In this document: positions 1-26,714 of the stretch, piece after piece
Layout of the letters: the number at the start of each line of letters is the position of its first letter
Numbering within the stretch: the first letter of the stretch is position 1
IMG/VR virus record: IMGVR_UViG_3300045988_136394
Coordinates: 1 to 64,000 of that record
DNA from: a virus
Length of the DNA: 64,000 bases
Strand: one strand, 5' to 3'
The notes under the pieces: model-generated
Told to the model about the DNA's origin: nothing
What the model saw: only the letters and a program-made list of their open reading frames with translations
The model's database searches: none
Translations under genes and position numbers: made by a program

Positions 1-9
1 CTTGTCTAT

Positions 10-38
10 ATTATAGCCCCCCTTTATCCTGTTGTCAA
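10..38 (-). promoter_or_regulatory. sigmaA-type promoter on the minus strand (TTGACA-17-TATAAT, with a G6 run directly before the -10); it fires leftwards out of the window
   Basis: The reverse complement of 10-38 reads TTGACAACAGGATAAAGGGGGGCTATAAT. A near-identical 40-bp copy lies at 3216-3256. Confidence 0.5.
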
Positions 39-57
39 GTATTTTTTTGAAAAATCG

Positions 58-92
58 CAAAATAAAAAAGCAGGGTATTTGCCCTGCTTTTT
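58..92 (-). terminator. Rho-independent terminator hairpin (GCAGGGT/ACCCTGC stem) with flanking A and T runs, possibly bidirectional
   Basis: Stem-loop aagcagggtatttgccctgctt followed by a T-run on the minus strand, just downstream of gene 117..530. Confidence 0.5.
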
Positions 93-116
93 GACGTAAA
101 TGTTAAGTATTGTTTT

Positions 117-530
117 TTATGGTACTACGGTTAAAACAACGTTGTTTCCTGCTGCGATAATCATTCTGCTTAATTCTTCGCCGTCGATATTCTGCATACG
201 CAGACAGCCGTAAGTCGGTACCCAGCCTTGACGTCCTGCAAACGGATTAGGCAAGCCGCTGCCGCCACCGTGAATATCTCTTGCTCGTGGGTCGTGGGTA
301 GTGATATAGAATGTGCCATAAGCTGCGCCATATGCGCCGTTAGTAACTTCTGCGCTTACGTTTGTATAAACGCCGTCCGGTAAGCTTCCACGGGGGTCGC
401 CTGCTTCGTTGTAGCCCGGAACAAAATCGTCACGACATTCCCAATCACCAATGACATTATAGCTTTCATCCATTGCGAAAATGCGCTGTTTACTACGCTG
501 AAACTGGATTTCTTTGACCATGTTTATCAC
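117..530 (-). CDS. L,D-transpeptidase (YkuD) catalytic-domain protein
   Basis: HGGGSG...TYGCLRM motif, the conserved His...Gly...Cys catalytic pattern of L,D-transpeptidases. Confidence 0.55.
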   Translation of the reverse strand: MINMVKEIQFQRSKQRIFAMDESYNVIGDWECRDDFVPGYNEAGDPRGSLPDGVYTNVSAEVTNGAYGAAYGTFYITTHDPRARDIHGGGSGLPNPFAGRQGWVPTYGCLRMQNIDGEELSRMIIAAGNNVVLTVVP

Positions 531-552
531 TCCTTTTTACCATTTTAGCACG

Positions 553-1143
553 TTATTTCGTGGTAGGCAAAAATTTATTAACTACATAATCAATAACCCT
601 TTTTACTGCGTTAGCAATACTGCTATATCCTAGTTCTATCAGATTCTCGTTTATGCTGGACAGTTCTACTACTAATATACATACTGTGATAATACCCGGC
701 AAAAAGTCGTTTAAAATTAAATTTGTTGAAAATAATTTAATATTCGGAACTACTTGCCCAGCATAAAATGCAATGACTAAACTAGCATTGTAAACCAGCA
801 ATTTTTCTATAACCCTTGAAAGGGCGGCACTGTTTAAATAATTCTTTTTCCATGTTTCGGCTTTAAAGCAGTAATACAAGGCTTTACGAAGTGAGATAAA
901 TTCAATCGGTGTATCAGGCGTTAAATTTTCATGGATGTATTTTTTGCTAATATAAACGACTTTAAGAAATGTATCATAAAGGACTAATCCGAATGATAAA
1001 AACACTACACCCCAAAAGCCTTCTCCAAACGTCTTATATCCAAAAGTCCATATAGCCACAGCATATGCCCATACATCAATATTCGCAAACCTGTTAATTA
1101 TATATTTAAGTTTTTCATATAAATTTGTCCACATAAAATACAC
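553..1143 (-). CDS. hypothetical integral membrane protein
   Basis: 196-aa ORF with several hydrophobic segments. No recognisable motif. Confidence 0.4.
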   Translation of the reverse strand: MYFMWTNLYEKLKYIINRFANIDVWAYAVAIWTFGYKTFGEGFWGVVFLSFGLVLYDTFLKVVYISKKYIHENLTPDTPIEFISLRKALYYCFKAETWKKNYLNSAALSRVIEKLLVYNASLVIAFYAGQVVPNIKLFSTNLILNDFLPGIITVCILVVELSSINENLIELGYSSIANAVKRVIDYVVNKFLPTTK

Positions 1144-1188
1144 CCCTTGTTTTTACTATATTATATCACAGTAAAAACAAGGGGTGTT
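1141..1188. repeat. perfect 15-bp inverted repeat hairpin (CCCCTTGTTTTTACT...AGTAAAAACAAGGGG) between cistrons, overlapping the start codon of 553..1143
   Basis: Seen directly. Stem 15 bp, loop 12 nt. Confidence 0.6.
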
Positions 1189-1191
1189 CCC

Positions 1192-1611
1192 TTATTTCTT
1201 TTTAAAGTAATCGTCTATGCCGTGCGCCTGTACGCTGCTTATGCTTTCATAAAAATCGGGCTTTAAGCTATGTTTTTCAAGCCACTTCATAACGGCTGCT
1301 GTTAATGTTTTTTCTAGTTCGGAACAGGCTTCTTCTGATATATCTTCTAGTTTTAGCCAATCAGCAGCAGCAATTCCTGCTATCTCGTCAGCTTCAATTT
1401 TTAGAATATCCAATACTGTTTCTGATTTTAAAGCTGGCGTGTACAGCTTTGCACTCCCTGTATATACTACTAGACATCCTTTGTTGTGTTCGTCGTTCAT
1501 AGCCGCCTGCATTGCTTCCTCACGGCTGTTAAAATCACCCTGCCATGTTTCCCTATCAAAAGAATAGGCGTATAGCTGTGCTGTCTTTGCGGATTGCTTT
1601 TTTACTACCAT
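1192..1611 (-). CDS. hypothetical protein
   Basis: 139-aa ORF that fits the minus-strand operon context. Confidence 0.4.
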   Translation of the reverse strand: MVVKKQSAKTAQLYAYSFDRETWQGDFNSREEAMQAAMNDEHNKGCLVVYTGSAKLYTPALKSETVLDILKIEADEIAGIAAADWLKLEDISEEACSELEKTLTAAVMKWLEKHSLKPDFYESISSVQAHGIDDYFKKK

Positions 1612-1648
1612 TTTTCACCTTCTTTACCTGGGCTTTTGCCCTGCTTTT

Positions 1649-1972
1649 TCAAAATTTAATTAATGTCGGATTATGTTTGAGCTTTCTCGAAACTTTACGT
1701 TTTATGGCAGCGTTTAAATCGTCGTCCCGTATCGGTAAAGTTATCAATAGCTGCGATAATGATATATATACATCTGCCATTTTTTCTACAATCTTACTGT
1801 ATTGCGGCTCGCTTTTTACTAACTGTTCAACTAATTTAGTGCTAGAAATGCAGCAGCTTTCTATGATTTTTTCTTTCGTTGCAGCTTTAGCAATACATTC
1901 TATGCTCAATCTGTCTAATATCATAGCAGACGGTAGCACACGATTTTTATTTAAGGTTTGGTTTTCAAACAT
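1649..1972 (-). CDS. hypothetical protein; start moved to the ATG at 1972, which has a GAGGA ribosome-binding site (RBS) and an ATGTTTGA overlap with the upstream stop
   Basis: The ORF-track frame is 1649..2068. The internal ATG with an RBS overlaps the stop of 1965..2162. Confidence 0.35.
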   Translation of the reverse strand: MFENQTLNKNRVLPSAMILDRLSIECIAKAATKEKIIESCCISSTKLVEQLVKSEPQYSKIVEKMADVYISLSQLLITLPIRDDDLNAAIKRKVSRKLKHNPTLIKF

Positions 1973-2162
1973 TTTTGTCCTCGCGTTGGGCTTCGTTCCA
2001 TTTTCTAGTCGTTTCAAGAATTCCGTCACCATATGCGCCTGATATAGACTGTCCGCAGTTACATTCAAAGTAAAAGGATAGTCCCAATTTTAGTCTTGGC
2101 TGACTTTTGCATTTTTTACAAGCTGCAATTTTTAATTTTAAGCTGCCGTTTTTCTTTGCCAT
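1965..2162 (-). CDS. Lar-family-like zinc-ribbon protein (putative restriction alleviation)
   Basis: CKKC...ECNCG zinc ribbon and a C-terminal ...TTRKWNEAQRE that resembles the Lar-family C-terminus (…EAI.AWNRR). Confidence 0.4.
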   Translation of the reverse strand: MAKKNGSLKLKIAACKKCKSQPRLKLGLSFYFECNCGQSISGAYGDGILETTRKWNEAQREDKNV

Positions 2163-2164
2163 AG

Positions 2165-2437
2165 CTATAAGCCCCTTTCTGTTTTTTCATCTAACGGAAT
2201 ACCCACATCAACTAACTGCTTGACGCCTTTCAATATGTGGTCTATAGAGTTTTTCCTCTTTTGAATTTTTAAAATGTATCCTACTAAATTCGCGCACACT
2301 ACGGCTGCATGAAATTCGTCTAAATTTAAAAAACATTCGTCGCTGATTAAATCGCCTGACGCTTCCCGTGTTATTCCCACAACGACTACGCTGTCGTTTT
2401 CTTTAGCTAATATCCTAGCTGCTTCTTTCGCGTTCAT
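2165..2437 (-). CDS. hypothetical protein
   Basis: 90-aa ORF. Confidence 0.35.
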   Translation of the reverse strand: MNAKEAARILAKENDSVVVVGITREASGDLISDECFLNLDEFHAAVVCANLVGYILKIQKRKNSIDHILKGVKQLVDVGIPLDEKTERGL

Positions 2438-2447
2438 ATTATCCCCC

Positions 2448-2771
2448 CTAAATCAATTCTAAAATCGCTTGTAATTCGACTTCTGTATTATATTTTTTTA
2501 CGTCATCTTTAATGGTAAAACGGTCTTTAAACCATAAAGTTAAAAAGCAACTCATTGTAAAAAAGCGAACGAAAAACGCGCCATAATTTTTTAAATAAAG
2601 TTGATGAAAACCAAACCAGCCGAAAAATGACCATAGATATAAAGCTCTATCTAAATCAATGCTTTTTTTTGCAACTTTCATCCTGAATTTTGTTTTCCCT
2701 GTTTCTGAAAGTTTTTCATACTGTTCGTTAATAAAGTCCTCTTTTGTTGAAAAATCCATAGTGTGTAGCAT
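2448..2771 (-). CDS. TM2-domain membrane protein
   Basis: GWFGFHQLYLKNYG...FF matches the TM2-domain signature (G..G.H.FYLG). Confidence 0.5.
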   Translation of the reverse strand: MLHTMDFSTKEDFINEQYEKLSETGKTKFRMKVAKKSIDLDRALYLWSFFGWFGFHQLYLKNYGAFFVRFFTMSCFLTLWFKDRFTIKDDVKKYNTEVELQAILELI

Positions 2772-2790
2772 AGTTTTTACCCCTTTCTTT

Positions 2791-3075
2791 TTACAAAAAC
2801 TCTGAAACTAATTCGTATCCCTCGTGGCTCTCGTTGAAGCATACCTTGTTATTCAATTCTTTAGGTACATCCTTTAATACGATACTTGCCCTAATGCCTA
2901 AATATCTTACTGCCGGGTTAACCTCTTTGAATACTCCTTTAGCTAGATTCCTAGCCTCACTGTAGTTGTAGGCAAAGGCTATAACTATTCCCAGCTCAGG
3001 AAACTCTTTGCTAGAACACTTGAAAGCCCTAACTTTTTCATACTGCTTTATCATGTTAGCCATTCTACAGTCCAC
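2791..3075 (-). CDS. hypothetical protein, first gene of the leftward operon
   Basis: 94-aa ORF. The true start may be the internal Met (MANMIKQ...). Confidence 0.35.
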   Translation of the reverse strand: MDCRMANMIKQYEKVRAFKCSSKEFPELGIVIAFAYNYSEARNLAKGVFKEVNPAVRYLGIRASIVLKDVPKELNNKVCFNESHEGYELVSEFL

Positions 3076-3224
3076 CTAACCAGCCGCGCCATATAGGATA
3101 TTCTATCAACACTTCGGCAAGTCCGGCACTTAATTTAACCGCAAAACTCACTAATCCAGCGGCGGCAGCAACTTTAATTATTGTTTTCCACTCAAACAAA
3201 TTATCAACTCCTATCTTTACTTAT

Positions 3225-3254
3225 ATTATAGCCCCCCTCTGTTCTGTTTGTCAA
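3225..3254 (-). promoter_or_regulatory. sigmaA-type promoter on the minus strand (TTGACA-18-TATAAT, G6 run before the -10) driving the 3075 to 117 operon
   Basis: Reverse complement reads TTGACAAACAGAACAGAGGGGGGCTATAAT. It is a direct-repeat copy of 1-40. Confidence 0.55.
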
Positions 3255-3299
3255 TAGGGTAATAAAAAATATAGTCCCTGTTAGAAGCTGGTAGGCAGA

Positions 3300-3620
3300 A
3301 AAACCCCTAACAGCACACAGTATTACTACTGTCTACTGAAAAGAGGTTTTTGCGATTGCGTCCCCGCCGTCGCTGTATAGTTGAATTGCTAGCCATTTCA
3401 TAGCGTCCCCAACGTCCCACGCTCCATGACTTACCCCCGCGCACTCTGCGCCCGTTGCCGCCAGCCGTATATTTTATAGACTATGCCTGTCTAAAGGTAT
3501 ATACACCATACCAGAGTAGGTTGACCTCTGCCAACTTCCCCCCCGCATAAAGCCCACTACAGCTAAAGCGGCTACTGATTTTTGCAATTAGAAAATCAGT
3601 AGGGGCAACGACTTTATAAA
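3300..3620. other. GC-rich ORF-free island between divergent promoters, with several hairpins; possible structured RNA or protein-binding region
   Basis: Local GC is far above the phage average (runs such as gcgtccccgccgtcgc and cccccgcgcactctgcgcccgttgccgcc). No ORF longer than 22 codons. An 11-bp stem ctactgatttt/aaaatcagtag is present. Confidence 0.3.
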
Positions 3621-3745
3621 CTTGGCTCGTTGCAGCACCAACCATTTTTTATACACAGGTGGGGTTATTCTGTGTCATTCCTATAGAGGTAAGGAATTTT
3701 TTCTATATTTAGTTAAAATCTAGTGTCAGCATTTACTTTTTTATA

Positions 3746-3774
3746 TTGACATTACTTTAAAATTTAGATATAAT
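3746..3774 (+). promoter_or_regulatory. consensus sigmaA promoter TTGACA-17-TATAAT
   Basis: ttgaca ttactttaaaatttaga tataat, a perfect consensus. Confidence 0.6.
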
Positions 3775-3780
3775 TTCTAT

Positions 3781-3928
3781 ATAGGCGTAACAAAAGGGGA
3801 CCTATAACTTCTAAAAGTTATAAGTTGATAATTAGTGTCGGCAAACATTTTTTATTGACATTGTTTTTTTTTGTTGCGTTTGCGTATGAGGTAGCAGCTC
3901 TGAAAAGAGTTGCTACTTTTTTATTTTA
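3781..3928 (+). ncRNA. candidate small RNA, about 150 nt, from the consensus promoter to an intrinsic terminator; no plausible ORF
   Basis: Promoter at 3746-3774. Terminator hairpin gtagcagctct-gaaa-agagttgctac followed by TTTTTTATTTT. Internal hairpin ataactt/aagttat. Confidence 0.35.
3891..3928 (+). terminator. Rho-independent terminator
   Basis: 11-bp stem with one G.U pair, GAAA loop, then T6AT4. Nested inside an outer 7-bp stem atgaggt/acctcat. Confidence 0.55.
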
Positions 3929-3953
3929 ACCTCATTTGATAAATTTGTCTAGT

Positions 3954-3983
3954 TGTGGATAATGTGGATAACTCTGTGTATAA
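3954..3983. promoter_or_regulatory. tandem DnaA-box cluster (TGTGGATAA-TGTGGATAA plus TGTGTATAA) followed by an AT-rich stretch
   Basis: Two contiguous perfect 9-mers matching the Firmicute DnaA-box consensus TTATCCACA/TGTGGATAA and a third copy with one mismatch. Confidence 0.55.
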
Positions 3984-4065
3984 ACTATATATAGTATTTA
4001 AACCGGAGTATTAGCCTATAAAAACACAAGATATAGTAAAAATAAAAGTTGTAAAAATTTTTAGC

Positions 4066-4094
4066 TTGATTTTTTTAGCCGTGCCGTTTATAAT
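4066..4094 (+). promoter_or_regulatory. sigmaA-type promoter TTGATT-17-TATAAT
   Basis: ttgatt tttttagccgtgccgtt tataat. Confidence 0.45.
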
Positions 4095-4128
4095 AATTCT
4101 GTAATTACAAATGCGTTAGGGGGGGGCA

Positions 4129-4251
4129 ATGCCTGTTCTCGAACGAATCAAAAGCCGCTCCCCGATAGTTCCTAACGTCGTGAATAACAAGAACATCACA
4201 AGCGCATATTTTCTTTTTCAAAATAAGTATCCTTTCTGTATGATTTATTAA
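4129..4251 (+). CDS. possible 40-aa small ORF (MPVLERIKSRSPIVPNVVNN...) within a roughly 210-nt promoter-to-terminator unit; may instead be a small RNA
   Basis: ATG preceded by a G8 run (RBS-like). The unit is bounded by the promoter at 4066-4094 and the terminator at 4271-4310. Confidence 0.25.
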   Translation: MPVLERIKSRSPIVPNVVNNKNITSAYFLFQNKYPFCMIY

Positions 4252-4270
4252 AAAAATCTTAGTAGGTTAT

Positions 4271-4310
4271 CCCTAGAATGCAGCTATACATTCTAGGGAT
4301 TTTTTCTTTT
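4271..4310 (+). terminator. Rho-independent terminator
   Basis: 10-bp stem ccctagaatg/cattctaggg followed by a T-run. Confidence 0.55.
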
Positions 4311-4329
4311 TATTTTTTTCAAAATTCAC

Positions 4330-4358
4330 TTGACACCTTCTTGTATTCGCTTTATAAT
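4330..4358 (+). promoter_or_regulatory. consensus sigmaA promoter TTGACA-17-TATAAT for the plus-strand operon
   Basis: ttgaca ccttcttgtattcgctt tataat, then RBS AAAGGGGGG before the ATG at 4380. Confidence 0.6.
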
Positions 4359-4379
4359 GAGAATAAAGGGGGGCTACAA

Positions 4380-4556
4380 ATGAGGTTTGTGTTAATGGCG
4401 TTAGGGACTGGTGTCGTTGCCGCAACAGCGGTATTCGACACGTTTAGTCAGATATTAAATTTACTTTTTATCACGGTCAGCAATCAGCGACATTGCTTAC
4501 TGAATTTACTTTACTTTATAAGCGCAGTTCTTGCGCTGCTGGTGATTTTGAAATGA
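4380..4556 (+). CDS. small hydrophobic membrane protein (58 aa)
   Basis: ATG with a strong RBS directly downstream of the consensus promoter. Two hydrophobic helices. Confidence 0.45.
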   Translation: MRFVLMALGTGVVAATAVFDTFSQILNLLFITVSNQRHCLLNLLYFISAVLALLVILK

Positions 4557-4816
4557 GGGTCATATTAAATCCTTTAATGCCGAATAAAGACGGTTACTTG
4601 ATGCCTGTAAAGCCGTCACAAGTCTATCATTGCGATAACATAAATCAATTTGTTACGCAAGTTGTTAAATCCGGCTCGCTCAATACTGAATATGTTGATT
4701 TGTGCAACATAGTTGGCTATTCAGAAGAAAAGGCGGATGTTAAAACATTAGTCGAGATTTTGAAAGACTTATTTTTTGAAAAACATCTAGCTTTAACAGC
4801 GGATTTTGACGAATAA
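4554..4816 (+). CDS. hypothetical protein (87 aa)
   Basis: ATG overlaps the upstream stop (ATGA), suggesting translational coupling. Confidence 0.4.
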
Positions 4817-4938
4817 AAAAACGCCTGCACAAGACGCACAGACGTAAAAAAGGAGTAAGCCGCTACACATAAATAATATAACTAAATATGTGCTTAATCA
4901 AACTTAAAGGATTACTAATGAGAAAGAAGGGCAAAGCT

Positions 4939-5814
4939 ATGCAGATTAAATTCCCATTACTAAACGCAGAAGATATAGAGATACGCGTTAACCGTATCAT
5001 TAAGTGCTATGCCGAGAATGCACAAGGCGAACGTGTTGAATACTACAAGGCAGATTTACTGCTTTATAAAGACGCTCGTGTTGATATGTATTATTTAGAT
5101 AGATACGTCGGGGCGGATAGCTGGCAAAGAACGCACAGGGCAGAAGGAAACGACTTCATCTGCGGAATATCCATAAAAAATGAAGCTGGAGAATGGATAA
5201 CTAAAGAAGATGTAGGCGAATTATCCAACGTTTCGGCGAATAAGGGGCGCGCTTCCGACGCCTTTAAACGTGCTGCTACTAATTGGGGTATAGGGCGGGA
5301 ATTATACAGTTCCCCCAAAATTCAGCTCATACTAAAAAAATATGAAACGTATATCAACAATCGAACGAAAAATGTAGCCTTAAGCAATGATGTTTCTTTT
5401 TTCGTTTCAGAAATTGAATACGACGAAAAAAAGCGTATCATTAAAGCTCTTGTGATTAAAGACGGGAACGGTAACTATCGTTTCGCCTACCCAGACGGCA
5501 AGCGCAACGAGATACAGAAACGAATTGAAGCAGCGCAGCAGGTCGGCGCATTAGTTGCCGCCAGCGTCGAAAAAGGCAAAGAAAAGCCTTTGCCTGAAAT
5601 CATCCCAGTTAAGCGGGAACGGGCAGAGGAAGCACCGCCCGCTATTAAGCCCAAAAATACGCCGCCACCTAAAGATGATGATACACGTAACATGTGTATC
5701 ATGTGCGGTGTCGGAATAAGCAAAGCTGTAGCAGCTATATCCAATCGTAAAGTACAGCAGGCAGTTTGTCTGCAATGTCGAGAAAAAATATTGAAAGGCA
5801 GGTATAAAAAGTGA
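4939..5814 (+). CDS. Rad52-like single-strand annealing protein (Sak-type recombinase)
   Basis: N-terminal FPLLNAEDIEIRVNRI and the RASDAFKRAATNWGIGRELY motif, typical of the Rad52/Sak family. Start chosen at the ATG that has a GAAGGG RBS. Confidence 0.65.
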   Translation: MQIKFPLLNAEDIEIRVNRIIKCYAENAQGERVEYYKADLLLYKDARVDMYYLDRYVGADSWQRTHRAEGNDFICGISIKNEAGEWITKEDVGELSNVSANKGRASDAFKRAATNWGIGRELYSSPKIQLILKKYETYINNRTKNVALSNDVSFFVSEIEYDEKKRIIKALVIKDGNGNYRFAYPDGKRNEIQKRIEAAQQVGALVAASVEKGKEKPLPEIIPVKRERAEEAPPAIKPKNTPPPKDDDTRNMCIMCGVGISKAVAAISNRKVQQAVCLQCREKILKGRYKK

Positions 5815-6002
5815 ATTTAAAAGGTATCGTTTCAGGTGTAGTGTGCGAAAAATGCGGGGCAGTGAAGCTGTTTCCTTTTTCAACAAAAGGTCAGACAAAA
5901 ATCAAAGCCCGGTCTTTAGGCTGGACTATATCTAAGCAAAAGCAGGTAGGCACTGAATGGCGTTGTGTGTGCAAGTGTCCCGATTGCGTGAATAACGGTT
6001 AA
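5811..6002 (+). CDS. zinc-ribbon protein (63 aa)
   Basis: CEKCG...CVCKCPDC cysteine pairs. GTG start overlaps the upstream stop. Confidence 0.35.
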   Translation: MNLKGIVSGVVCEKCGAVKLFPFSTKGQTKIKARSLGWTISKQKQVGTEWRCVCKCPDCVNNG

Positions 6003-6006
6003 GAAA

Positions 6007-6053
6007 AAGCCCCTAGCGTGTCACACAATCGACGCTAGGGGCTTTTAATTTTA
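6007..6053 (+). terminator. Rho-independent terminator ending the plus-strand operon
   Basis: Perfect 11-bp stem gcccctagcgt/acgctaggggc followed by TTTTAATTTT. Confidence 0.65.
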
Positions 6054-6098
6054 TCTTGCTTATGTTTCCTTGTGTTGATGATTTAAACGGCTTATAAC

Positions 6099-6767
6099 TT
6101 AAATTTGACGTTCTCGCACTTTAAAACCTTTACATTCTACTATTGCCGCCGAATTTACTTTCTTATTGCTGACGCTGCTATTAATATACCGCCCTTTCAC
6201 TGCTGACCACGCCAGCATATATTTATCAACAGCAGGTGTAACCTTCGTTGCTGCCTTTTTGGTAATCAGCCTTAATTTACTGTAGCGTCCTTCGTGTGCA
6301 GTGATAAAGCCGATATGCGGCGGTACTTCGTCGAGTAGCCCCAGCTTTTCAAGCTGCTTGAACGTGTCTGACGGCATAACGTAGTAGTTAATATCACCCA
6401 CCAAGTTATGTCCGTTAGGGCTTTTAAAATCGCTTACAGTACTTTTTATCTCGAAACAAATAGTAATTAATTCAGTAGGTAAATCAAAAGTCTTAAAGGT
6501 CTTTATAACGTCGCCTCTGTAGTTCTTTTTTTTACAAGTTATATAATGTTCTTCCGGATTAGTTATACCGTAGGTTATAGGCGGCAGCAGAAAGCTTTCA
6601 CAAACTTTTATACAATCTACCTTCCCAGCTTCACTCAATCCGTTTAAAACGGCTATTTCATACGCGGTTAATATTCCGCGTGCTGTAGCAATTCTAACCC
6701 CGTCAATCTTTGACGGGGTATATTCTTTTAACGCTTTTTCTATTCTTAATACTATATCACTTTTCAT
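6099..6767 (-). CDS. hypothetical protein, possibly a PD-(D/E)xK-type nuclease
   Basis: An FDLPTE...ICFEIK arrangement resembles a D...ExK nuclease motif. The assignment is weak. Confidence 0.3.
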   Translation of the reverse strand: MKSDIVLRIEKALKEYTPSKIDGVRIATARGILTAYEIAVLNGLSEAGKVDCIKVCESFLLPPITYGITNPEEHYITCKKKNYRGDVIKTFKTFDLPTELITICFEIKSTVSDFKSPNGHNLVGDINYYVMPSDTFKQLEKLGLLDEVPPHIGFITAHEGRYSKLRLITKKAATKVTPAVDKYMLAWSAVKGRYINSSVSNKKVNSAAIVECKGFKVRERQI

Positions 6768-6984
6768 TGTTTATATCCTTTTTTCTATAGTCTATAGTTA
6801 AAAGATATCGCCCAGTAGCAAGCAAAGTTTTAACCCGCCGCCTATAGAATATATAAGCCTTTTTTATTTGTCGTTCACGTTCTTTTTTTATCATAGTTCT
6901 AACTATTTCCTTATTTTTCAAAATTGTTAGGAAGTTTTTTCTTCCGAACGTCGCGGATAAAATATAACTTCCACCTGTAAGCAA
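6757..6984 (-). CDS. hypothetical basic protein (start uncertain, TTG)
   Basis: ORF in the minus-strand operon. An alternative 46-aa ORF in another frame reaches about 7049. Confidence 0.3.
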   Translation of the reverse strand: MLTGGSYILSATFGRKNFLTILKNKEIVRTMIKKERERQIKKAYIFYRRRVKTLLATGRYLLTIDYRKKDINNEK

Positions 6985-7053
6985 GGCTATAGCCCCCGCG
7001 ACGGTAGAGGGTAAAGGCTTTTTTAAACTGCTGTATTCGTTCTGTTTTCATTT

Positions 7054-7182
7054 TTACCTCAAATAAATAATAGGTTCACTGTCAGGCTCGTTAACGACTA
7101 TAACGCCAAGCAAAGGGCAGCCGTCCGTTTGTGTTTCAGCAGGCAAGCCCGTTATAGCACTCATAAGTTCTTCTTTAGTCAT
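7054..7182 (-). CDS. small ORF (42 aa, MTKEELMSAITGLPAETQTDG...)
   Basis: Below the ORF-track cut-off. Start overlaps the stop of the next small ORF (ATGA). Confidence 0.3.
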   Translation of the reverse strand: MTKEELMSAITGLPAETQTDGCPLLGVIVVNEPDSEPIIYLR

Positions 7183-7336
7183 TCTTTTTCTCCGTTTCCA
7201 ATTCCAATGTTGCCCAAAAGTTACCATTACCTTTTACTATGCTGATGATTCGCCAACCGCGGCGCGTATAGTATCTGTTGATGAATTCTATCAATTTCTC
7301 GTGGCTTGGGTCGAATATTGACATATATTTTCTCAT
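7179..7336 (-). CDS. small ORF (52 aa, MRKYMSIFDPSHEK...)
   Basis: Strong RBS GGAGGTG 7 nt upstream of the ATG. Confidence 0.4.
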
Positions 7337-7348
7337 TTTGCACACCTC

Positions 7349-7639
7349 CTATATTTTTACCCGTGTAAAGTCAAATGGATTTTTATATGGATTTTTTAAA
7401 CTGTATCCGCTAATTAATCCACCCTGATAACCAAAATTGTCAAGCCATTGCCCATTTTTTCTAAATCTTATGGCGTCCTTGCAATTTGTGCTTCTTAAAT
7501 AAATCGTCCCGCTTTTGGTAATTTTTAAAATTTTTTCTATTGTCTGCCTATCGCCAGCCATTGAATGATATTCTATAGTAACTTCATCACCGACTTTCAA
7601 GGTCGCTGCATATTTTTCTAAAGTCATATATGTTGACAT
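7349..7639 (-). CDS. hypothetical protein
   Basis: 96-aa ORF whose stop abuts the next gene. Confidence 0.4.
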   Translation of the reverse strand: MSTYMTLEKYAATLKVGDEVTIEYHSMAGDRQTIEKILKITKSGTIYLRSTNCKDAIRFRKNGQWLDNFGYQGGLISGYSLKNPYKNPFDFTRVKI

Positions 7640-8004
7640 TATTCTTTTTCCCTATCAAATATACTTTCATAATCCATTTGTAAATAACGCACTGCTTCTT
7701 CACATATTGCTGTATTCCAATAATTTATCAAATTTTGTTTATGATTAAAAAGCCCAGTTGTCAAGTCACAAACACGACAAACAATTTTATATCCGCCATT
7801 TGGAAGTTCACGAATTATTGGTTGATAGCCACATTTAGGGCAAGGTTGTAAGGATTTAATTTCAAATTCATTCAAAATATGACAAATTTCTTCGGCTACC
7901 TGCAAAGGTACATTAACGGCCATGGCTAAAATTCTATAATTCTTATGAACTTCATATACATTATAAAGGTCTGATTTTTCATCTGTTAAAACTGGTTCAT
8001 ACAT
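7639..8004 (-). CDS. zinc-ribbon protein with a Lar-like C-terminal half (putative restriction alleviation)
   Basis: LQPCPKCGY...VCRVCD cysteine pairs in a Lar-like arrangement (CPxCG...C..C). Confidence 0.35.
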   Translation of the reverse strand: MYEPVLTDEKSDLYNVYEVHKNYRILAMAVNVPLQVAEEICHILNEFEIKSLQPCPKCGYQPIIRELPNGGYKIVCRVCDLTTGLFNHKQNLINYWNTAICEEAVRYLQMDYESIFDREKE

Positions 8005-8234
8005 ATTAACATCCTCCTATTTTCATAAGTAATTAAGTAAACACAAGAAAAGTGTAATGGAAATATTAGCAGTAACTAATATAAAAAGCTTTACCCATGC
8101 ACTCTCCGCCACGGATAATAAATCACAAAGTACATATAAATAATATACAAATACACTAATAATAATAGTTAAGCCCAACATTGATAAGAATGTCATAATT
8201 TAGCCTCCTAGGGATATCTCTTTCATTCATTGTC

Positions 8235-8615
8235 TTATTCATCGTCCTCAATTATCCTCAAGTCCTTTTTAAATTTTTCTACTGGAGAAAGGTCGAGAGT
8301 CTGCCCACAATATCTACAATGTTTACCTAAATAATATGATGGATCTTTTAAAACATCTAAAAATTCTTTCTCGTCATAAATTGGTAATTTCTTCAACATA
8401 CTTGAACAATGTGAACAAACAATATCATAACCAAATAGACCACGATCAACTCTAACAGGCGCTGGCCTTTCTTTAGATATGCAATTCAATATCAATTTTA
8501 ATTCTGACTTATTAAAATTTATCGCTATTTTTTCATTATCCGGCAATTCATTTATCCATGAATCCTGTAAAATTGCCCTTAACCTGTTGATAATCTCTAC
8601 AGACTCTTTGTTCAT
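8235..8615 (-). CDS. zinc-finger protein (126 aa)
   Basis: CSHCSS and HCRYCG pairs. Confidence 0.4.
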   Translation of the reverse strand: MNKESVEIINRLRAILQDSWINELPDNEKIAINFNKSELKLILNCISKERPAPVRVDRGLFGYDIVCSHCSSMLKKLPIYDEKEFLDVLKDPSYYLGKHCRYCGQTLDLSPVEKFKKDLRIIEDDE

Positions 8616-8750
8616 TGTTTTTAAACTCCTTTCATATAATTACATTAAAAAATTTTTTACGGCCGTTTACGGACTGTTTTCATTAAGGCATTTTCCCAAC
8701 TCCTAACATTTTATTTACAGTTTTTAGCCCTATTTTGTGGCTATGCGTTT

Positions 8751-8779
8751 ATTATAATGCTATCTAGTATATTTGTCAA
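8751..8779 (-). promoter_or_regulatory. consensus sigmaA promoter (minus strand) TTGACA-17-TATAAT for the 8615 to 6099 operon
   Basis: Reverse complement reads TTGACAAATATACTAGATAGCATTATAAT. Confidence 0.55.
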
Positions 8780-8875
8780 CAATTATTTTTAACGACATAA
8801 ATCGTCCATTAAGGGTCTGTATTTTTGCTTTTAGATTTTATGATTTAACTCCTTAAATGGTTTTACGTGGCTTGT

Positions 8876-8936
8876 GTTTTTGATTATGGAAAATCACTCT
8901 ATAGGAGGGTATATTTTTTGATTATGGAAAATCATC
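8876..8936. repeat. two 21-bp direct repeats (TTTTTGATTATGGAAAATCA) with a 39-bp period; iteron-like
   Basis: Seen directly at 8876-8897 and 8915-8936. A G-rich motif ggtaggggtgggtggtagg follows at about 8948-8968. Confidence 0.6.
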
Positions 8937-8949
8937 CATTAATGGAGAT

Positions 8950-10060
8950 GTATTATGGTAGGGGTGGGTGGTAGGCCACATCTTCAAAACGGACTCCTGG
9001 GGGTATTAATTATGAAGATTAATAACATGGTAAGGGCATCTAGTTGCTTATGCTTATCAATAGCTATTGCTATTAGCTTATTATGCTAATTAATAATAAG
9101 GTATTATTTTGTATATATACTAATAATACACTTTTACTATTTATCTATACTTCATAATCATCTATATTACTAATAATATTCATTTATTATTTACCGCCAA
9201 ATGGCATAAACACTGGCTTTTTAATTAATAATGGCTATTGCTTATAATATATTGCTTGTTTGCATGGCTTGTATTATGGTATATATTGTATATATACATA
9301 TATTATATATTAATAAGGCTTCATAAGCATTAATTGTTACTAATAATGAGCTTGTGCTTATCATGCAGCGGCAAAAATAGTATTAAATCCTTATATGTAT
9401 ATGTTGTTTGTAGCCCTTAAACACTATATTTCCCATATTACCACATTGTTTATATTACTATATTTCACACTATATTTCTACTATTACTTGCATATAACAA
9501 TGGTAAATAGCTACCTAATATAACATAATATACAATATAACATGGTAACATATACTAAAAGCTAAATGGTAATATATTTCACCCTATACTATATGTTATA
9601 TTGTATATATTTCTATACTCTACTATGTAGTAACCTATAGTATATTTCACCTATTACTAATTATTAAAAGCTTTCTATATGTATATTATTATTAGTGTTA
9701 TATGTTGTTATATTTTAGTATTTTCTATATTGTATATATTATTAAAACCTAATAATTTTTACACAGCGCGGCGGCTTAAATTTTATATGGTATTATTAGA
9801 GTTCATTATCTTTACTAATATTTGTTATTAAACAGCATTATTATTACTATTAATATTAATTCCTATTACTCTTATTTTACTAGCTAATTACCTTTGCTTA
9901 TTTACCTGCAATCTGCATAAATATTGGCTTTTTAATCTTTTTTATTGCTTATTAATAATTGTTGCTAATTATATTGTTTGCTAATTATTCTGTGTTATTG
10001 TTTGTTGTATTATTACTATTATTGTTATTTATTATTTAATATTTTCAATAGTCACTAAAA
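8950..10060. repeat. 1.1-kb ORF-free, extremely AT-rich low-complexity tract with degenerate repeats (TTGCT/ATTGC/GCTTAT words; roughly 40-bp related copies at 9186 and 9900; isolated GC islands at 9365, 9765 and 10075)
   Basis: No ORF of 60 aa or more on either strand. Repeated ttatttacc(g/t)..gcataaa..tggctttttaat elements. Confidence 0.5.
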
Positions 10061-10358
10061 TACGTTTGTACTTACTACGCCGCCGCCAAATTTTGCCTAC
10101 ATTAATACTTTTTACCCTGCCCTATTACTTATACCTTTGCACGCAAAAACCTTTTATAGCCAATTTATATGCCTATAAAGCCTATTGCCAATTTACTAAT
10201 TTGCCAAAATACGCTATTTTTATTATATTTTTTATTACTTTTACATCATTTTATAAAATATGTTTACATATTTTGCTTGTAATTTTTTAATATTGTATAT
10301 TGTAATTTACAAGCAATTATGTTATAATAAAACCATAATAAACAAGGGGGTATTTAAT

Positions 10359-10625
10359 ATGCAAGTTAGTAAATATTTGTACAAACATTTTGCGCAATTA
10401 AATTGCCACAATTTAAATTATGGCGTTAAAATTACAAGTGCCGTATTGTTACAGTATGTTAAAGCACTTGGTTTTAGGGTTTTAACATTAAAATTTTATG
10501 GCAAACCAAAACGCAACAATTTTAGTATAACGGTAAAACACCATAATTATAATAATTGTTATTGTTTAAATTGGCGTACTAATAAAAATGGCTATATTGT
10601 TTTTGTTGGGGTTTGCATTGTTTAA
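10359..10625 (+). CDS. hypothetical Cys/Asn/Tyr-rich small protein (89 aa)
   Basis: ATG with RBS AAGGGGG. An intrinsic terminator follows directly. Confidence 0.4.
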   Translation: MQVSKYLYKHFAQLNCHNLNYGVKITSAVLLQYVKALGFRVLTLKFYGKPKRNNFSITVKHHNYNNCYCLNWRTNKNGYIVFVGVCIV

Positions 10626-10634
10626 AAAATTAAT

Positions 10635-10664
10635 AACCTGCAATTTTGCAGGTTATTTTTTTTG
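10635..10664 (+). terminator. Rho-independent terminator
   Basis: aacctgcaa-ttt-tgcaggtt followed by a T9 run. Confidence 0.6.
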
Positions 10665-10677
10665 CCTGTTTTTAGCC

Positions 10678-10704
10678 AAAAAAAAATACCCCTTTTGCAA
10701 GGGG
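10678..10704 (-). terminator. Rho-independent terminator for 10719..11039
   Basis: cccctt-ttgc-aagggg hairpin with a T-run on the minus strand. Confidence 0.5.
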
Positions 10705-10718
10705 CAAATTTTTATATA

Positions 10719-11039
10719 TTAAAAATTATATGTATCGGTATAGCATAAATTAGCAGTGCCACAAATACCAACACTGCAATTAATATAAGCGCCGTCGGGC
10801 ATAACACTTATAAAGCAGTTACCGTTATTAGTATATGTTGTTAGTGTAAATTTGTTATTAGCCATAAACTCGAGCTCGCAATCGTTACCGTTTGCATTTA
10901 ACTCCTCGGTAATATTATCGAGTAATTGGTAAATATTACTAATTTCGTTAGGGTTATTAATAGTATCGAGTATTGTTTGGTAAATTGGTACAAATTGGTT
11001 AACTAAATTGCTTAAATTGTTTACATAATTGGTTAGCAT
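10719..11039 (-). CDS. Asn/Thr-rich protein with a Cys-rich C-terminus (bacteriocin-like or adhesin-like; function unknown)
   Basis: C-terminal ...GNCFISVMPDGAYINCSVGICGTANLCYTDTY. Low-complexity N-rich N-terminus. Own terminator. Confidence 0.4.
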   Translation of the reverse strand: MLTNYVNNLSNLVNQFVPIYQTILDTINNPNEISNIYQLLDNITEELNANGNDCELEFMANNKFTLTTYTNNGNCFISVMPDGAYINCSVGICGTANLCYTDTYNF

Positions 11040-14610: not shown

Positions 14611-14651
14611 AAAGTTATCCACAACTTTATTCACAGCCTGTGGATAACTTT
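14611..14651. promoter_or_regulatory. inverted pair of DnaA boxes (AAAGTTATCCACA...TGTGGATAACTTT, 13-bp perfect inverted repeat, 15-bp spacer) just upstream of the promoter at 14554-14582
   Basis: Perfect TTATCCACA and TGTGGATAA 9-mers seen directly. Confidence 0.5.
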
Positions 14652-25559: not shown

Positions 25560-25560
25560 T

Positions 25561-26214: not shown

Positions 26215-26533
26215 AAATTGCTAAATTCCCTTCGCTTTCTTGTACTTCTACTCTGTAACACGTTGGAATAATATCACAAATATATTTTGCAATATTTTCA
26301 GCTGTTGGATTAAAAGGAACAACTTGATTAATACTTTGATGATCGAATACATCCATTACACATTTTTTAATATGTGTAAAATCCTCAACCATGCCATAAT
26401 CCGAAAGTTCTCTAGCTTTGCAATAAATTTTAACTTTCCAATTATGACCGTGAAGATTAGCGCATTTACTCTCATAAGGCAGATTTAAATAATGAGATGC
26501 AGATATTTCTAATTCTTTGATAACTGTGTACAT
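26195..26533 (-). CDS. queD: 6-carboxy-5,6,7,8-tetrahydropterin synthase (QueD)
   Basis: CANLHGHNW (CxxxHGH) zinc motif, about 112 aa. Confidence 0.75.
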   Translation of the reverse strand: MYTVIKELEISASHYLNLPYESKCANLHGHNWKVKIYCKARELSDYGMVEDFTHIKKCVMDVFDHQSINQVVPFNPTAENIAKYICDIIPTCYRVEVQESEGNLAIYEQEDI

Positions 26534-26712: not shown

Positions 26713-26714
26713 AA

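What the first reader, a model, noticed from the sequence alone, without database searches (positions are those of the whole stretch)
8616..10065. Iteron pair plus a 1.1-kb extremely AT-rich degenerate-repeat tract (candidate origin or packaging region)
There are two 21-bp direct repeats TTTTTGATTATGGAAAATCA (39-bp period). A single G-rich motif ggtaggggtgggtggtagg follows, with G-quadruplex potential in an otherwise AT-rich context. After that comes 1.1 kb with no ORF, full of TTGCT/ATTGC/GCTTAT words, and related roughly 40-bp elements lie about 715 bp apart. Short GC islands (gcggcggc / gccgccgcc) occur at 300-400-bp spacing. There is no regular repeat-spacer periodicity, so this is not a CRISPR array.
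Basis: seen in the sequence. Interest (0 to 1): 0.55.

Follow-up and report, generated by a model that had tools for sequence, protein, structure and literature searches.

The report
Repeat-rich noncoding seam in gut phage
A 1.7-kb gene-free stretch, with a copy-number-variable array of 38-base repeats, sits where a one-directional ~66-kb human-gut phage genome starts and ends; it is real and kept in a second lineage, probably a DNA-level control or replication-start zone, but most of it evolves like unconstrained DNA.

Summary
The pair is the shortest form of a 37-38-nt repeat array that has 2-5 intact units across 33 distinct arrays. A lineage only ~70% identical in its core genes keeps the array, the unique G-rich box, both GC islands and the two ~100-nt modules, although its adjacent early genes are entirely different.

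The tract is non-coding, matches no Rfam family, shows no excess RNA folding, and has no positionally conserved promoter inside it. It lies between a perfect leftward sigma-70 early promoter and a rightward promoter for a dispensable 88-aa gene. It is the least stable duplex in the window.

Its GC content (24%) equals that of 4-fold degenerate sites (21.5%). Its divergence between lineages (58%) is about that of third codon positions (56%). The interior therefore looks largely unconstrained.

Contig ends inside the tract are assembly failures, some running into Nextera adapter, not genome termini.

A textbook lambda-type origin (iterons, AT-rich stretch, G-rich box) lies inside the DnaD/O-like initiator gene at 35.7 kb. 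DnaA-box trios lie elsewhere.

Best reading (~0.4): a cis-acting, supercoil-sensitive unwinding or auxiliary origin zone. Rivals are early-promoter control, a packaging site, or a neutral spacer.

The parts
8751..8779 (-). Early promoter: perfect TTGACA-17 nt-TATAAT. It points left, away from the tract, into the early operon whose first gene starts at 8615.
   Evidence: scores it 12 of 12. An equally perfect promoter sits at the same place in lineage B. Sequence conserved with relative L001 begins at 8723, just downstream of this promoter.
8799..8952 (+). Array of 37-38-nt direct repeats. There are two degenerate units (8799-8876) and two intact units (8877-8914, 8915-8952). Each unit has a left box TTTTTGATT and a right box (C/T)C(T/C)ATTA/TATAGGGG.
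   Evidence: for this window. The distance from promoter to G box is quantised at 180, 218, 255 or 291 nt (2-5 intact units, most often 3) in 33 distinct arrays. Lineage B has units with a 37-nt period and the pattern TTTGATT-N10-GACTCTATAGGGG.
8940..9006 (+). Conserved block 1: TAATGGAgATGTATTAT, then the G-rich box GGTAGGGGTGGGTGGTAGG (8957-8975), then AAAACGGAC, then GGGGGTAT.
   Evidence: Positions 8940-8974 are 89% identical between lineages A and B. The G box is unique in the window. The pattern with the G box retrieved only these two lineages, from 10 viral and 29 metagenome contigs.
9010..10250 (.). AT-rich, ORF-free and promoter-free tract (GC 23.9%). The + strand is pyrimidine-rich (T 44%, C 14%).
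   Evidence: It is the least stable duplex of the window at 100-, 300- and 1000-bp scales. No positionally conserved sigma-70 promoter lies inside it. RNA-fold z-scores are around 0 or positive. Indels among relatives are not multiples of 3.
9160..9265 (+). Module X1: TTACTAATAAT ... TTTACCGCCAAATGGCATAAACACTGGCTTTTTAAT ... ATTGCTTAT.
   Evidence: Core repeat D1 at 9174-9225. A homologous block is present in lineage B.
9870..9985 (+). Module X2, a direct-repeat copy of X1 lying 711 nt downstream. It contains conserved block 3 (9945-9967, TTGCTTATTAATAATTGTTGCTA).
   Evidence: Block 3 is 96% identical between lineages A and B.
9379..9404 (+). Conserved block 2: AGTATTAAATCCTTATATGTATATGT.
   Evidence: 85% identical between lineages A and B. 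On its own this is of borderline significance.
9430..9660 (.). Central minisatellite zone. Different short tandem units are amplified in different strains.
   Evidence: L009 has a 17-nt unit repeated about 5 times, L011 has 24-nt units, L003 has CCTAATATAA-type units, and L023 (lineage B) has an insertion at the same place. Identity to close relatives drops to 71-96% here, against at least 98% in the flanks.
9766..9775 (.). GC island GCGCGGCGGC. Its inverted partner is at 10078-10087.
   Evidence: It is kept as a GC island in lineage B (AGCGCGCGG).
10078..10087 (.). GC island CGCCGCCGCC.
   Evidence: It is kept in lineage B as CCGCCGCCAGC.
10252..10328 (+). Promoter region of ORF88. A 43-nt block (10260-10302) is identical in both lineages and contains the dyad TTACA-N9-TGTAA. 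It is followed by TTGTAA-17 nt-TGtTATAAT.
   Evidence: Within the region aligned between lineages, this is the only positionally conserved promoter that could start a gene, the other hit lying inside ORF88; the alignment did not register the early promoter.
10359..10625 (+). ORF88, a small gene on the opposite strand to nearly all others. It is conserved in lineage B but often deleted or frameshifted among strains, so it is dispensable.
   Evidence: It has no Pfam or PHROG match. Its start codon is mutated in L013 and it carries an internal deletion in L001.
10632..10706 (.). Two hairpin terminators (10632-10657 and 10687-10706). They close both ORF88 and the long minus-strand transcription unit arriving from the right.
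   Evidence: The first hairpin is replaced by a different hairpin in lineage B.

Best explanation
The region 8751-10706 is a conserved, non-coding, cis-acting DNA seam of a ~66-kb phage genome with a circular map and nearly all genes on one strand. It lies between the terminators that end the long transcription unit and the perfect sigma-70 promoter that starts the early operon.

What is shown.
- The region encodes no protein and no detectably structured RNA.
- It carries a polymorphic array of 37-38-nt repeats, a unique G-rich box, two ~100-nt direct-repeat modules and GC islands. A lineage whose neighbouring early genes are completely different keeps all of these.
- It is the most easily melted DNA in the window.
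- It is bracketed by two promoters that fire outward.

What is inferred.
- A protein conserved between the lineages binds the repeat array. This protein is not encoded next door. It could be a phage core protein or a host protein.
- Outward transcription from the very strong early promoter, and from the ORF88 promoter, drives negative supercoils into the promoter-less AT-rich DNA between them.
- That DNA opens, and the zone serves as an auxiliary, transcription-activated start or unwinding site for phage DNA replication. The DnaB/DnaC-type helicase system and the Pol I-type polymerase are phage-encoded.
- The AT-rich interior needs only its composition and low stability, not its exact sequence. 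This would explain why it drifts at a near-neutral rate and accumulates minisatellites.

I put this reading at about 0.4.
For: Real and conserved repeat array.
- The repeat is statistically real in the window.
- Array length is quantised at 2-5 intact units in 33 distinct arrays.
- Lineage B keeps a 37-nt-period array plus the G box, modules, GC islands and the ORF88 promoter.
- No lineage-B early-operon ORF has a homologue in the window.

Non-coding.
- Indels among relatives include 1-, 2-, 14- and 40-nt events.
- The ATG of the 26-aa ORF is absent in lineage B.
- Reading frames are not preserved.

No RNA signal.
- Rfam finds nothing at threshold.
- Fold z-scores are around 0 or positive.
- No positionally conserved promoter lies inside the tract.

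Physical properties and setting.
- Six of the eight least stable 100-bp windows, and the least stable 1-kb window, fall in the tract.
- Outward-firing promoters flank it and terminators lie on its right.
- Transcription directed away from an origin can activate it through upstream negative supercoiling, and iterons next to an A+T-rich region are the basic design of lambda and plasmid origins (review PMC5043065).
- A large non-coding region with several repeat families, one of which is the functional iteron set, is a proven origin in the PLE satellite. The phage ICP1 appears to activate a second origin late in infection (PMC7145576).
- The phage encodes DnaD/O-like, DnaC-like, DnaB, primase, Pol I-type polymerase, clamp and clamp-loader proteins.
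- About 1.26 kb is retained between fixed anchors in both lineages: 1261 versus 1257 nt.
Against: A better origin candidate exists elsewhere.
- Two exact 22-nt dyad iterons, about 100 nt of AT-rich DNA and a G-rich box lie inside the DnaD/O-like initiator gene at 35700-35825.
- The same layout, with lineage-specific iterons, is found in lineage B and in a third lineage.
- DnaA-box trios lie at 3954-3983 and 14615-14647, the latter conserved in lineage B. There are none in the tract.

Features of iteron origins that are missing.
- No initiator gene is adjacent.
- The tract repeats do not resemble those inside the initiator gene.
- The 37-38-nt period is about 3.6 helical turns, so it is out of phase. 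Plasmid iterons are generally phased (PMC5043065).

The interior looks unconstrained.
- The tract's GC (23.9%) equals the GC of 4-fold degenerate sites (21.5%) and of third codon positions (22.9%).
- Identity between lineages A and B is 58%, against 56% at third codon positions and a 48% alignment baseline from shuffles.
- AT-richness therefore needs no selective explanation.

Other points.
- 1.26 kb is far longer than any known unwinding element.
- There is no A-tract phasing.
- GC3 skew shows no replichore step at the tract.
Confidence: 0.4

Rival explanations
1. Early-promoter control region plus insulator. The 38-nt repeats are operator- or enhancer-type sites for a conserved regulator. 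By forming a multi-site nucleoprotein complex, it turns the perfect-consensus early promoter off or on, and possibly the ORF88 promoter as well. The AT-rich kilobase is only a transcriptional and topological buffer between the end of the late unit and the early promoter.
For: The array starts about 20 nt upstream of the -35 box and fills all the space between the promoter and the G box in both lineages. The promoter and array are inherited as one block while the downstream early genes are swapped. Copy-number variation is easily tolerated by upstream regulatory arrays. Lack of helical phasing is less of a problem for this reading than for an origin. The ORF88 promoter carries a perfectly conserved dyad, TTACA-N9-TGTAA. 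The interior of the tract evolves near-neutrally.
Against: The repeats do not overlap the core promoter, and a 12-of-12 consensus promoter needs no activator. No regulator is encoded nearby that both lineages share: ORF88 is often broken, and the HTH gene of most lineage-A strains is absent from the window and from lineage B. The motif occurs nowhere else in the 64 kb, so it is not a regulon operator. This reading gives no reason to keep 1.26 kb of spacer in a compact phage genome.
Confidence: 0.25
2. Neutral spacer. Apart from the two promoters, the terminators and perhaps the repeat array, the tract is functionless DNA. It could be a decayed accessory cassette in a plasticity zone, drifting at the mutational equilibrium and growing or shrinking by slippage.
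For: GC equals the synonymous-site GC. Divergence is about that of third codon positions. The central zone is a minisatellite hot spot with strain-specific units. The neighbouring ORF88 and the cassettes at 10.7-11.6 kb are variably deleted. Conserved blocks 2 and 3 are individually of only borderline significance.
Against: Two lineages that have diverged to ~70% nucleotide identity both keep about 1.26 kb with the same order of modules, GC islands and blocks. Phage genomes normally purge useless DNA. The strong purine/pyrimidine strand asymmetry is shared by both lineages. Ten-nucleotide pure-GC islands would not persist at 22% equilibrium GC.
Confidence: 0.15
3. Packaging signal or genome ends. 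The repeats are small-terminase binding sites (like cosB, or pacL/pacR). The G box or a GC island is the cut site, or the edge of a terminal repeat. This would put the early promoter and a Lar-like anti-restriction gene at the first-injected end.
For: The seam position in a one-directional genome resembles the left end of T7-type genomes, with a strong host-type promoter and an early Lar-like gene just inside it. GC-rich islands in AT-rich DNA resemble cohesive-end sequences (my own knowledge). Many public contigs end in this region.
Against: Contig ends are scattered from 9034 to 10288, none falls at the G box, and three run into Nextera adapter sequence. This points to coverage or assembly failure. 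Complete 66.1-66.6-kb scaffolds cross the tract and are broken at arbitrary points elsewhere. terS and terL lie 4.5-8 kb away, beyond a swappable cassette. The large terminase is Terminase_3-type, closest to temperate Firmicutes siphoviruses, and this family is not diagnostic of cos or terminal-repeat packaging. Copy number of 2-5 is unusual for terminase-binding sites.
Confidence: 0.12
4. A long non-coding RNA, or a long 5' leader of ORF88, transcribed rightward from near the G box.
For: A 5-of-6 -10 box (TATTAT, 8951-8956) lies just upstream of the G box and is conserved in lineage B. There is no intrinsic terminator before 10632. The + strand has fewer stop codons and a T>A bias.
Against: There is no usable -35 box and no positionally conserved promoter. 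Rfam finds nothing. Folding is no better than for shuffled sequence, and is often worse. The sequence drifts near-neutrally and carries indels. ORF88 has its own conserved promoter.
Confidence: 0.05

Closest known systems
Lambda-type and plasmid iteron origins (ori-lambda inside gene O; P1, R6K, pSC101, RK2)
   Same: An array of direct repeats lies next to an A+T-rich, easily opened region. A nearby promoter has an orientation that can feed negative supercoils into that region (PMC5043065).
   Different: The repeat period of 37-38 nt is out of helical phase. No initiator gene is adjacent or co-varying. There are no DnaA boxes. The AT-rich part is about 1.26 kb rather than about 40-100 bp. The phage's own O/DnaD-like gene already holds a separate lambda-type iteron set.
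Non-coding-region origin of the Vibrio PLE satellite, and the two origins of phage ICP1 (PMC7145576)
   Same: A large non-coding region holds several repeat families, only one of which is the functional iteron set. The repeats are semi-palindromic around an A-rich centre, as in TGATT-ATGGAA-AATCA here. One phage can use more than one origin.
   Different: PLE encodes its RepA_N initiator, and binding was shown experimentally. Here no RepA_N-type gene was found. The inverted sub-repeat is not kept in lineage B.
Origins of virulent lactococcal phages (c2, sk1/936 group) and 'phage-encoded resistance' ori fragments (from my own knowledge, not checked in papers here)
   Same: These are AT-rich intergenic regions with direct and inverted repeats, lying next to early promoters at a boundary between transcription units in Firmicutes phages. 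In c2, transcription from the early promoter is part of origin function.
   Different: Those regions are a few hundred bp long and were defined functionally. There is no sequence similarity to them. Here the early promoter points away from the tract.
Transcription-primed origins: ColE1 RNA II, the T7 primary origin, pAMbeta1, and the mitochondrial control region (partly PMC5043065, otherwise my own knowledge)
   Same: Promoters, a G-rich conserved block, an AT-rich non-coding kilobase, conserved sequence blocks and copy-number-variable tandem repeats occur together. A Pol I-family polymerase is encoded by the element.
   Different: No promoter reading into the tract could be shown. The G box does not form a canonical four-run G-quadruplex motif. 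The purine-rich strand of the tract is the opposite strand to the G box.
cosB/pac terminase-binding repeat clusters, and the T5 'injection stop' repeat region (my own knowledge)
   Same: Clusters of short repeats in non-coding DNA lie at the functional start of a genome, upstream of the first-expressed genes.
   Different: The region is far from terS and terL. There are no fixed ends in assemblies, and complete scaffolds read through it.

Membership tests
Iteron-type replication origin | Array of at least 3 direct repeats that can bind an initiator | tested here: met
   There are 2 intact and 2 degenerate units in the window, and 2-5 intact units in relatives. A lineage-B array has a 37-nt period. 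Protein binding itself was not tested.
Iteron-type replication origin | Adjacent A+T-rich region of low duplex stability | tested here: met
   The tract is the least stable DNA of the window at all three scales tested. However, its GC equals the synonymous-site GC.
Iteron-type replication origin | Repeats in phase with the DNA helical repeat (PMC5043065) | tested here: not met
   Spacings are 36-38 nt, about 3.6 turns.
Iteron-type replication origin | Cognate initiator gene that is linked to the repeats and co-varies with them | tested here: not met
   Flanking early genes differ completely between lineages while the repeats are kept. ORF88 is dispensable. The DnaD/O-like initiator has its own, unrelated iterons.
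Iteron-type replication origin | DnaA boxes or other host-factor sites in the origin | tested here: not met
   No TTATCCACA match (up to 1 mismatch) falls in 8616-10358. Clusters lie at 3954-3983 and 14615-14647.
Iteron-type replication origin | Origin activity: a read-depth peak or autonomous, infection-dependent replication | not testable with these tools
   This needs infected-cell sequencing or plasmid assays. The host is unknown, and there was no hit in reference genomes.
cos/pac packaging site or terminal repeat | Defined DNA ends or a coverage step at the site | tested here: inconclusive
   Only assemblies were available. Contig ends are scattered, some end in adapter sequence, and complete scaffolds cross the site. 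No read data were available.
cos/pac packaging site or terminal repeat | Location in or next to the small-terminase gene | tested here: not met
   terS (185 aa) and terL lie 4.5-8 kb to the left, beyond a variable cassette.
CRISPR array | Regular repeat-spacer periodicity with unique spacers, usually with cas genes | tested here: not met
   The units abut with no spacers, there are only 2-5 copies, and no cas genes are present.
Known structured RNA family (Rfam) | Match at the gathering score, or folding more stable than shuffled sequence | tested here: not met
   Within the tract there is no hit with E-value of 1 or less. Fold z-scores range from -2.1 to +2.6, mostly near 0.
Canonical G-quadruplex motif | Four runs of at least 3 G separated by loops of 1-7 nt | tested here: not met
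   Only GGGG and GGG are within range, and the next G3+ run is about 30 nt away. Only a two-tetrad version is possible, and the lineage-B box has fewer runs.
Protein-coding sequence | An open frame preserved in relatives | tested here: not met
   ORFs are 50 aa or shorter. The ATG of the 26-aa ORF is missing in lineage B. Indels are not multiples of 3, and the frame differs between lineages.

The most novel reading that the evidence does not exclude
The seam works like a phage 'control region' in the mitochondrial or ColE1 sense. It would be a second origin with no initiator of its own. A conserved phage or host factor bound to the out-of-phase 38-nt repeats, together with outward transcription, would open the AT-rich kilobase. 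The G-rich box would nucleate an RNA-DNA hybrid that the phage Pol I-type enzyme extends. Repeat copy number (2-5) would tune firing, and the central minisatellite would be a by-product of frequent initiation or stalling.
Probability: 0.1. Interest if true: 0.7.

Novelty: new variant of a known kind. Interest (0 to 1): 0.4.

Why it matters
The phage is common in human-gut data: the ORF88 cluster alone stands for 695 member sequences. Its genome breaks at this tract in many public assemblies. Knowing that the tract is a hard-to-assemble, copy-number-variable, non-coding seam explains those fragmented contigs and some chimeric ones.

If the repeats and tract turn out to be an origin or a switch bound by a factor not encoded next to it, this would be an origin/control design that departs from the textbook pattern in three ways: out-of-phase repeats, a kilobase-scale unwinding zone, and a separate lambda-type origin in the same genome. 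It would also provide a handle for studying replication timing in uncultured Firmicutes phages.

If the tract is only a spacer, it is a rare example of a phage tolerating more than 1 kb of neutral DNA.

Tried and rejected
- Coding. The 44-, 26- and 74-aa ORFs at 8955, 9012 and 10066 were rejected. The ATG is missing or the frame shifted in lineage B, a 1-nt deletion occurs in L008, and indels of 1, 2, 14 and 40 nt occur among strains.
- CRISPR. Rejected.
- Rfam and RNA folding. No signal.
- A-tract or curvature periodicity. No peak near 10.5 nt.
- DnaA boxes. None in the tract.
- GC3 skew along the genome. The values track core versus accessory gene blocks and show no replichore step, so this was uninformative.
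- Genome termini from contig ends. This first looked promising: five IMG/VR contig ends fall within 9575-10885. It was then rejected because the ends are scattered, some end in Nextera adapter, and complete scaffolds cross the tract.
- A '130-kb genome or dimer' idea, prompted by a 131,915-nt contig. Dropped. L042 and L053 overlap with 100% identity over 8.1 kb, so they gave no evidence for two distinct copies, and complete scaffolds are about 66 kb.
- ORF88 as the repeat-binding protein. Rejected because it is often truncated.
- The XRE-type HTH gene of lineage-A strains as the binder. Rejected because it is absent from the window and from lineage B.
- The repeat motif elsewhere in the window or in reference bacterial genomes. 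It is absent from the rest of the window, and the genomes gave only 4 unrelated single hits.
- AAACGGACT as a dispersed motif. Not significant.
- A third lineage carrying the tract. Not found.
- Similarity to isolated phages. None at DNA level.
- Excess of promoter-like sites. None: 26 found against 26.9 expected.
Full report
**What the window is.** The window is most of the genome of an uncultured human-gut phage. Nearly all genes are on the minus strand. They include:
- the major head protein, scaffold, tail sheath, tape measure, baseplate and endolysin;
- a full replication set: DnaD/O-like initiator at 35323-36102, DnaC-like loader, DnaB-type helicase, primase, Pol I-type polymerase, sliding clamp, three clamp-loader genes and a RecA/UvsX-like recombinase.

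Shine-Dalgarno sites, TTGACA/TATAAT promoters and the closest polymerase relatives (Clostridium phage phiCTP1 and Streptococcus phage Dp-1, 45-46% identity) point to a Firmicutes host. Complete scaffolds of 66,614, 66,319 and 66,134 nt, each broken at a different arbitrary point, show a circular map of about 66 kb.

Read along the minus strand, the order is: early promoter, a variable early cassette, terS and terL, head, tail, lysis, replication, small genes, terminators. The finding sits exactly at the seam where this one-directional circle closes.

**Checking the observation.** Every item is present.
- The 20-nt repeat occurs exactly twice, at 8877 and 8915, with a 38-nt period. The chance expectation is 0.07.
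- The G-rich 19-mer at 8957-8975 is unique in 64 kb.
- From 9093 to about 10258 no ORF exceeds 50 aa, and GC is about 23-24%.
- A set of 8-mers is 16-58 times over-represented, as counted on the + strand.
- The two related elements are 52-nt repeats 711 nt apart.
- GCGCGGCGGC (9766) and CGCCGCCGCC (10078) are two of only six runs of 10 or more G/C in the window, and they share an 8-nt inverted repeat.

**Close relatives.** IMG/VR and metagenome contigs of the same species are at least 99% identical in core genes. The tract blocks are 98-99% identical, which is no better conserved than the background. The informative part is what varies.

The distance from the early promoter to the G box takes the quantised values 180, 218, 255 or 291 nt. 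The repeat pair is therefore the shortest version of a 37-38-nt array with 2-5 intact units, most often 3, in 33 distinct arrays.

A second hot spot lies at 9430-9660. It is a minisatellite zone in which each strain has amplified a different short unit.

Indels of 1, 2, 14 and 40 nt occur elsewhere in the tract, so the tract is not coding.

**A second lineage.** Contigs L023 and L025 are about 70% identical to the window in replication genes. Codon positions 1, 2 and 3 are 76%, 83% and 56% identical. These contigs have the same layout:
- a perfect TTGACA-17-TATAAT leftward promoter;
- about five repeat units (TTTGATT-N10-GACTCTATAGGGG) with a 37-nt period;
- GGGGTGGGTGGTAG, then AAAACGGAC, then GGGGGGTAT;
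- about 1.26 kb without an ORF (1257 nt against 1261 nt between the same anchors), with homologues of both ~100-nt modules, the GC islands and short conserved blocks;
- a 43-nt stretch identical to 10260-10302, followed by TGtTATAAT, a ribosome-binding site, a homologue of ORF88 and a hairpin terminator of different sequence.

The ATG of the 26-aa ORF at 9012 is absent in this lineage. No ORF of the lineage-B early operon has a homologue in the window. The window itself has a different early cassette from most lineage-A strains. The seam is therefore backbone, and its neighbours are swappable.

**How constrained is the interior?** Only weakly. Identity between lineages A and B across the tract is 58% of aligned positions. 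Shuffled controls give 47-50%, and third codon positions give 56%.

The tract's GC (23.9%) equals the GC of 4-fold degenerate sites (21.5%) and of third positions (22.9%). The 'extreme' AT-richness is therefore simply the composition that unconstrained DNA reaches in this genome.

What argues for function is:
- retention of about 1.26 kb with the same order of landmarks in both lineages;
- pure-GC islands that would not survive at that mutational equilibrium;
- a strong strand asymmetry shared by both lineages;
- the conserved repeat array and G box.

**DNA or RNA?**
- Rfam gives nothing at threshold.
- Sliding 150-nt folds on both strands are no more stable than dinucleotide shuffles, and are often less stable.
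- Sigma-70-like hits are no more frequent than in shuffled sequence (26 against 26.9).
- In the region aligned between lineages, the only positionally conserved promoter that could start a gene is that of ORF88; the alignment did not register the early promoter.

Terminators at 10632-10706 stop the incoming minus-strand transcription. The tract is therefore most likely untranscribed, and any function acts at the DNA level. This step is an inference.

**Physical properties.** The tract holds six of the eight least stable 100-bp windows and the least stable 300-bp and 1-kb windows of the 64 kb. It shows no A-tract phasing. It is bracketed by two promoters that fire outward: the 12-of-12 consensus early promoter to the left and the ORF88 promoter to the right. 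By the twin-domain principle, which the review PMC5043065 discusses for origin activation, such promoters push negative supercoils into the DNA between them.

**Origin?** The design of repeats next to easily melted DNA next to an activating promoter is that of lambda and plasmid origins. Large non-coding regions with several repeat families are proven origins in the PLE satellite, and the phage ICP1 appears to activate a second origin late in infection (PMC7145576).

Several defining features fail, however.
- The period is about 3.6 helical turns, whereas plasmid iterons are generally phased.
- No initiator gene is linked to the repeats.
- ORF88, the only conserved neighbour, carries in-frame deletions and frameshifts in many strains.
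- There are no DnaA boxes in the tract.

The genome also has a far more canonical candidate. Inside the DnaD/O-like gene lie two exact 22-nt dyad repeats (ACGTGTTCCAGAAAGTAGAACA), about 100 nt of AT-rich sequence and GGGGGTATAAGGGGGG (35700-35825). Lineage B and a third lineage have the same layout at the same place, with their own repeats (GTCCCAAAAACTGGGAC, 3-5 copies). That is the pattern expected when an initiator and its sites co-evolve. In addition, DnaA-box trios lie at 3954-3983 and 14615-14647, the latter conserved in lineage B next to a promoter.

If the seam is an origin, it is a second, different kind of origin.

**Packaging?** Many public contigs end in the region, which at first suggested termini. 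Closer inspection argues against this.
- The ends are scattered from 9034 to 10288.
- None falls at the G box.
- Three contigs end in the Nextera adapter CTGTCTCTTATACACATCT.
- Others stop in the repeat array or at a variable cassette near 10.86-10.89 kb.

These are coverage and repeat failures in AT-rich, polymorphic DNA. Complete scaffolds read through the region. terS and terL lie 4.5-8 kb away. The large terminase is of the Terminase_3 type, closest to those of temperate Firmicutes siphoviruses. Only read-level data could settle the question.

**G-quadruplex?** There is no canonical motif of four G3 runs, and the lineage-B box has fewer G runs. The phage carries FolE, QueE, QueC and a DpdA/TGT-like gene. 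If its DNA guanines are replaced by 7-deazaguanines, tetrads could not form. This last point is my own inference.

**Verdict.** This is a real, conserved, non-coding cis-acting seam. I rank the readings as follows:
- an auxiliary, supercoil- or transcription-activated unwinding/origin zone with an unidentified, unlinked binding factor: about 0.4;
- an early-promoter control array plus insulating spacer: about 0.25;
- a largely neutral spacer: about 0.15;
- a packaging site: about 0.12;
- a non-coding RNA or leader: about 0.05.

It is a variant of a known kind, not a new category. Interest is moderate.

Noticed in passing
window 35700-35825 (inside gene 35323-36102, minus strand); L083 1274-1480; L086 1267-1403: A lambda-type origin signature lies inside the DnaD/O-like initiator gene. 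It consists of two exact 22-nt dyad repeats, about 100 nt of AT-rich DNA, and GGGGGTATAAGGGGGG. Two other lineages have the same layout with their own 18-nt repeats (GTCCCAAAAACTGGGAC, 3-5 copies). This is probably the primary origin.
   Followed up: yes
window 3954-3983 and 14615-14647; L025 about 9520-9561: Five of the six perfect DnaA boxes (TTATCCACA) in the 64 kb fall in two intergenic trios. The trio at 14.6 kb is conserved in lineage B, immediately upstream of a TTGACT-17-TATAAT promoter. These could be DnaA-regulated promoters or host-DnaA-dependent sites.
   Followed up: partly
window 24981-28321: A preQ0/7-deazaguanine gene set is present: GTP cyclohydrolase I, a radical-SAM QueE-like gene, QueC and a tRNA-guanine-transglycosylase/DpdA-like gene. 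It suggests that the phage DNA carries modified guanines.
   Followed up: partly
window 10359-10625 and homologues P0001-P0044: ORF88, the lone plus-strand gene beside the tract, shows many in-frame internal deletions and frameshifts across strains. Its start codon is mutated in L013. It is a dispensable, rapidly decaying or diversifying gene with a perfectly conserved promoter/operator block.
   Followed up: yes
window 1-8615 compared with L071 1-8237 and L025 15500-20627: The early cassette between the seam and terS is a mosaic. Most lineage-A strains have HTH, dUTPase, p82, terS and terL within 6.5-8 kb. The window instead has a plus-strand Erf/Rad52 island (4278-6002) and lacks those genes within its 64 kb. 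Lineage B shares none of the window's early genes.
   Followed up: partly
L051, L061 and L064 (3' ends): Public metagenome contigs end in Nextera adapter sequence (CTGTCTCTTATACACATCTCCGAGCCCACGAGAC) inside the AT-rich tract. This is untrimmed adapter at points where coverage failed.
   Followed up: yes
IMG/VR contig 3300045988_138881 (L078, L083): This 81.5-kb contig carries both a lineage-B initiator gene (36% identity) and a lineage-A one (99% identity). It is likely a chimeric or over-extended assembly of two co-occurring phages. Contigs much longer than 66 kb in this group should be distrusted.
   Followed up: partly
window 48986-49021 and 49551-49586: A perfect 36-nt inverted repeat brackets about 530 nt between and within two tail-fibre-like genes. 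It might be an invertible host-range segment. However, the plus-strand ORF inside it (49306-49620) shows no similarity to the fibre C-terminus, and no invertase was seen.
   Followed up: partly
window 9010-10250: CTA is about twice as frequent as expected on the plus strand (47 against 24.8). TGA is almost absent on the plus strand (2 against 16.9), and GTC is nearly absent on both strands. This may reflect oriented words, or possibly Firmicutes-type primase start trinucleotides. It remains unexplained.
   Followed up: no
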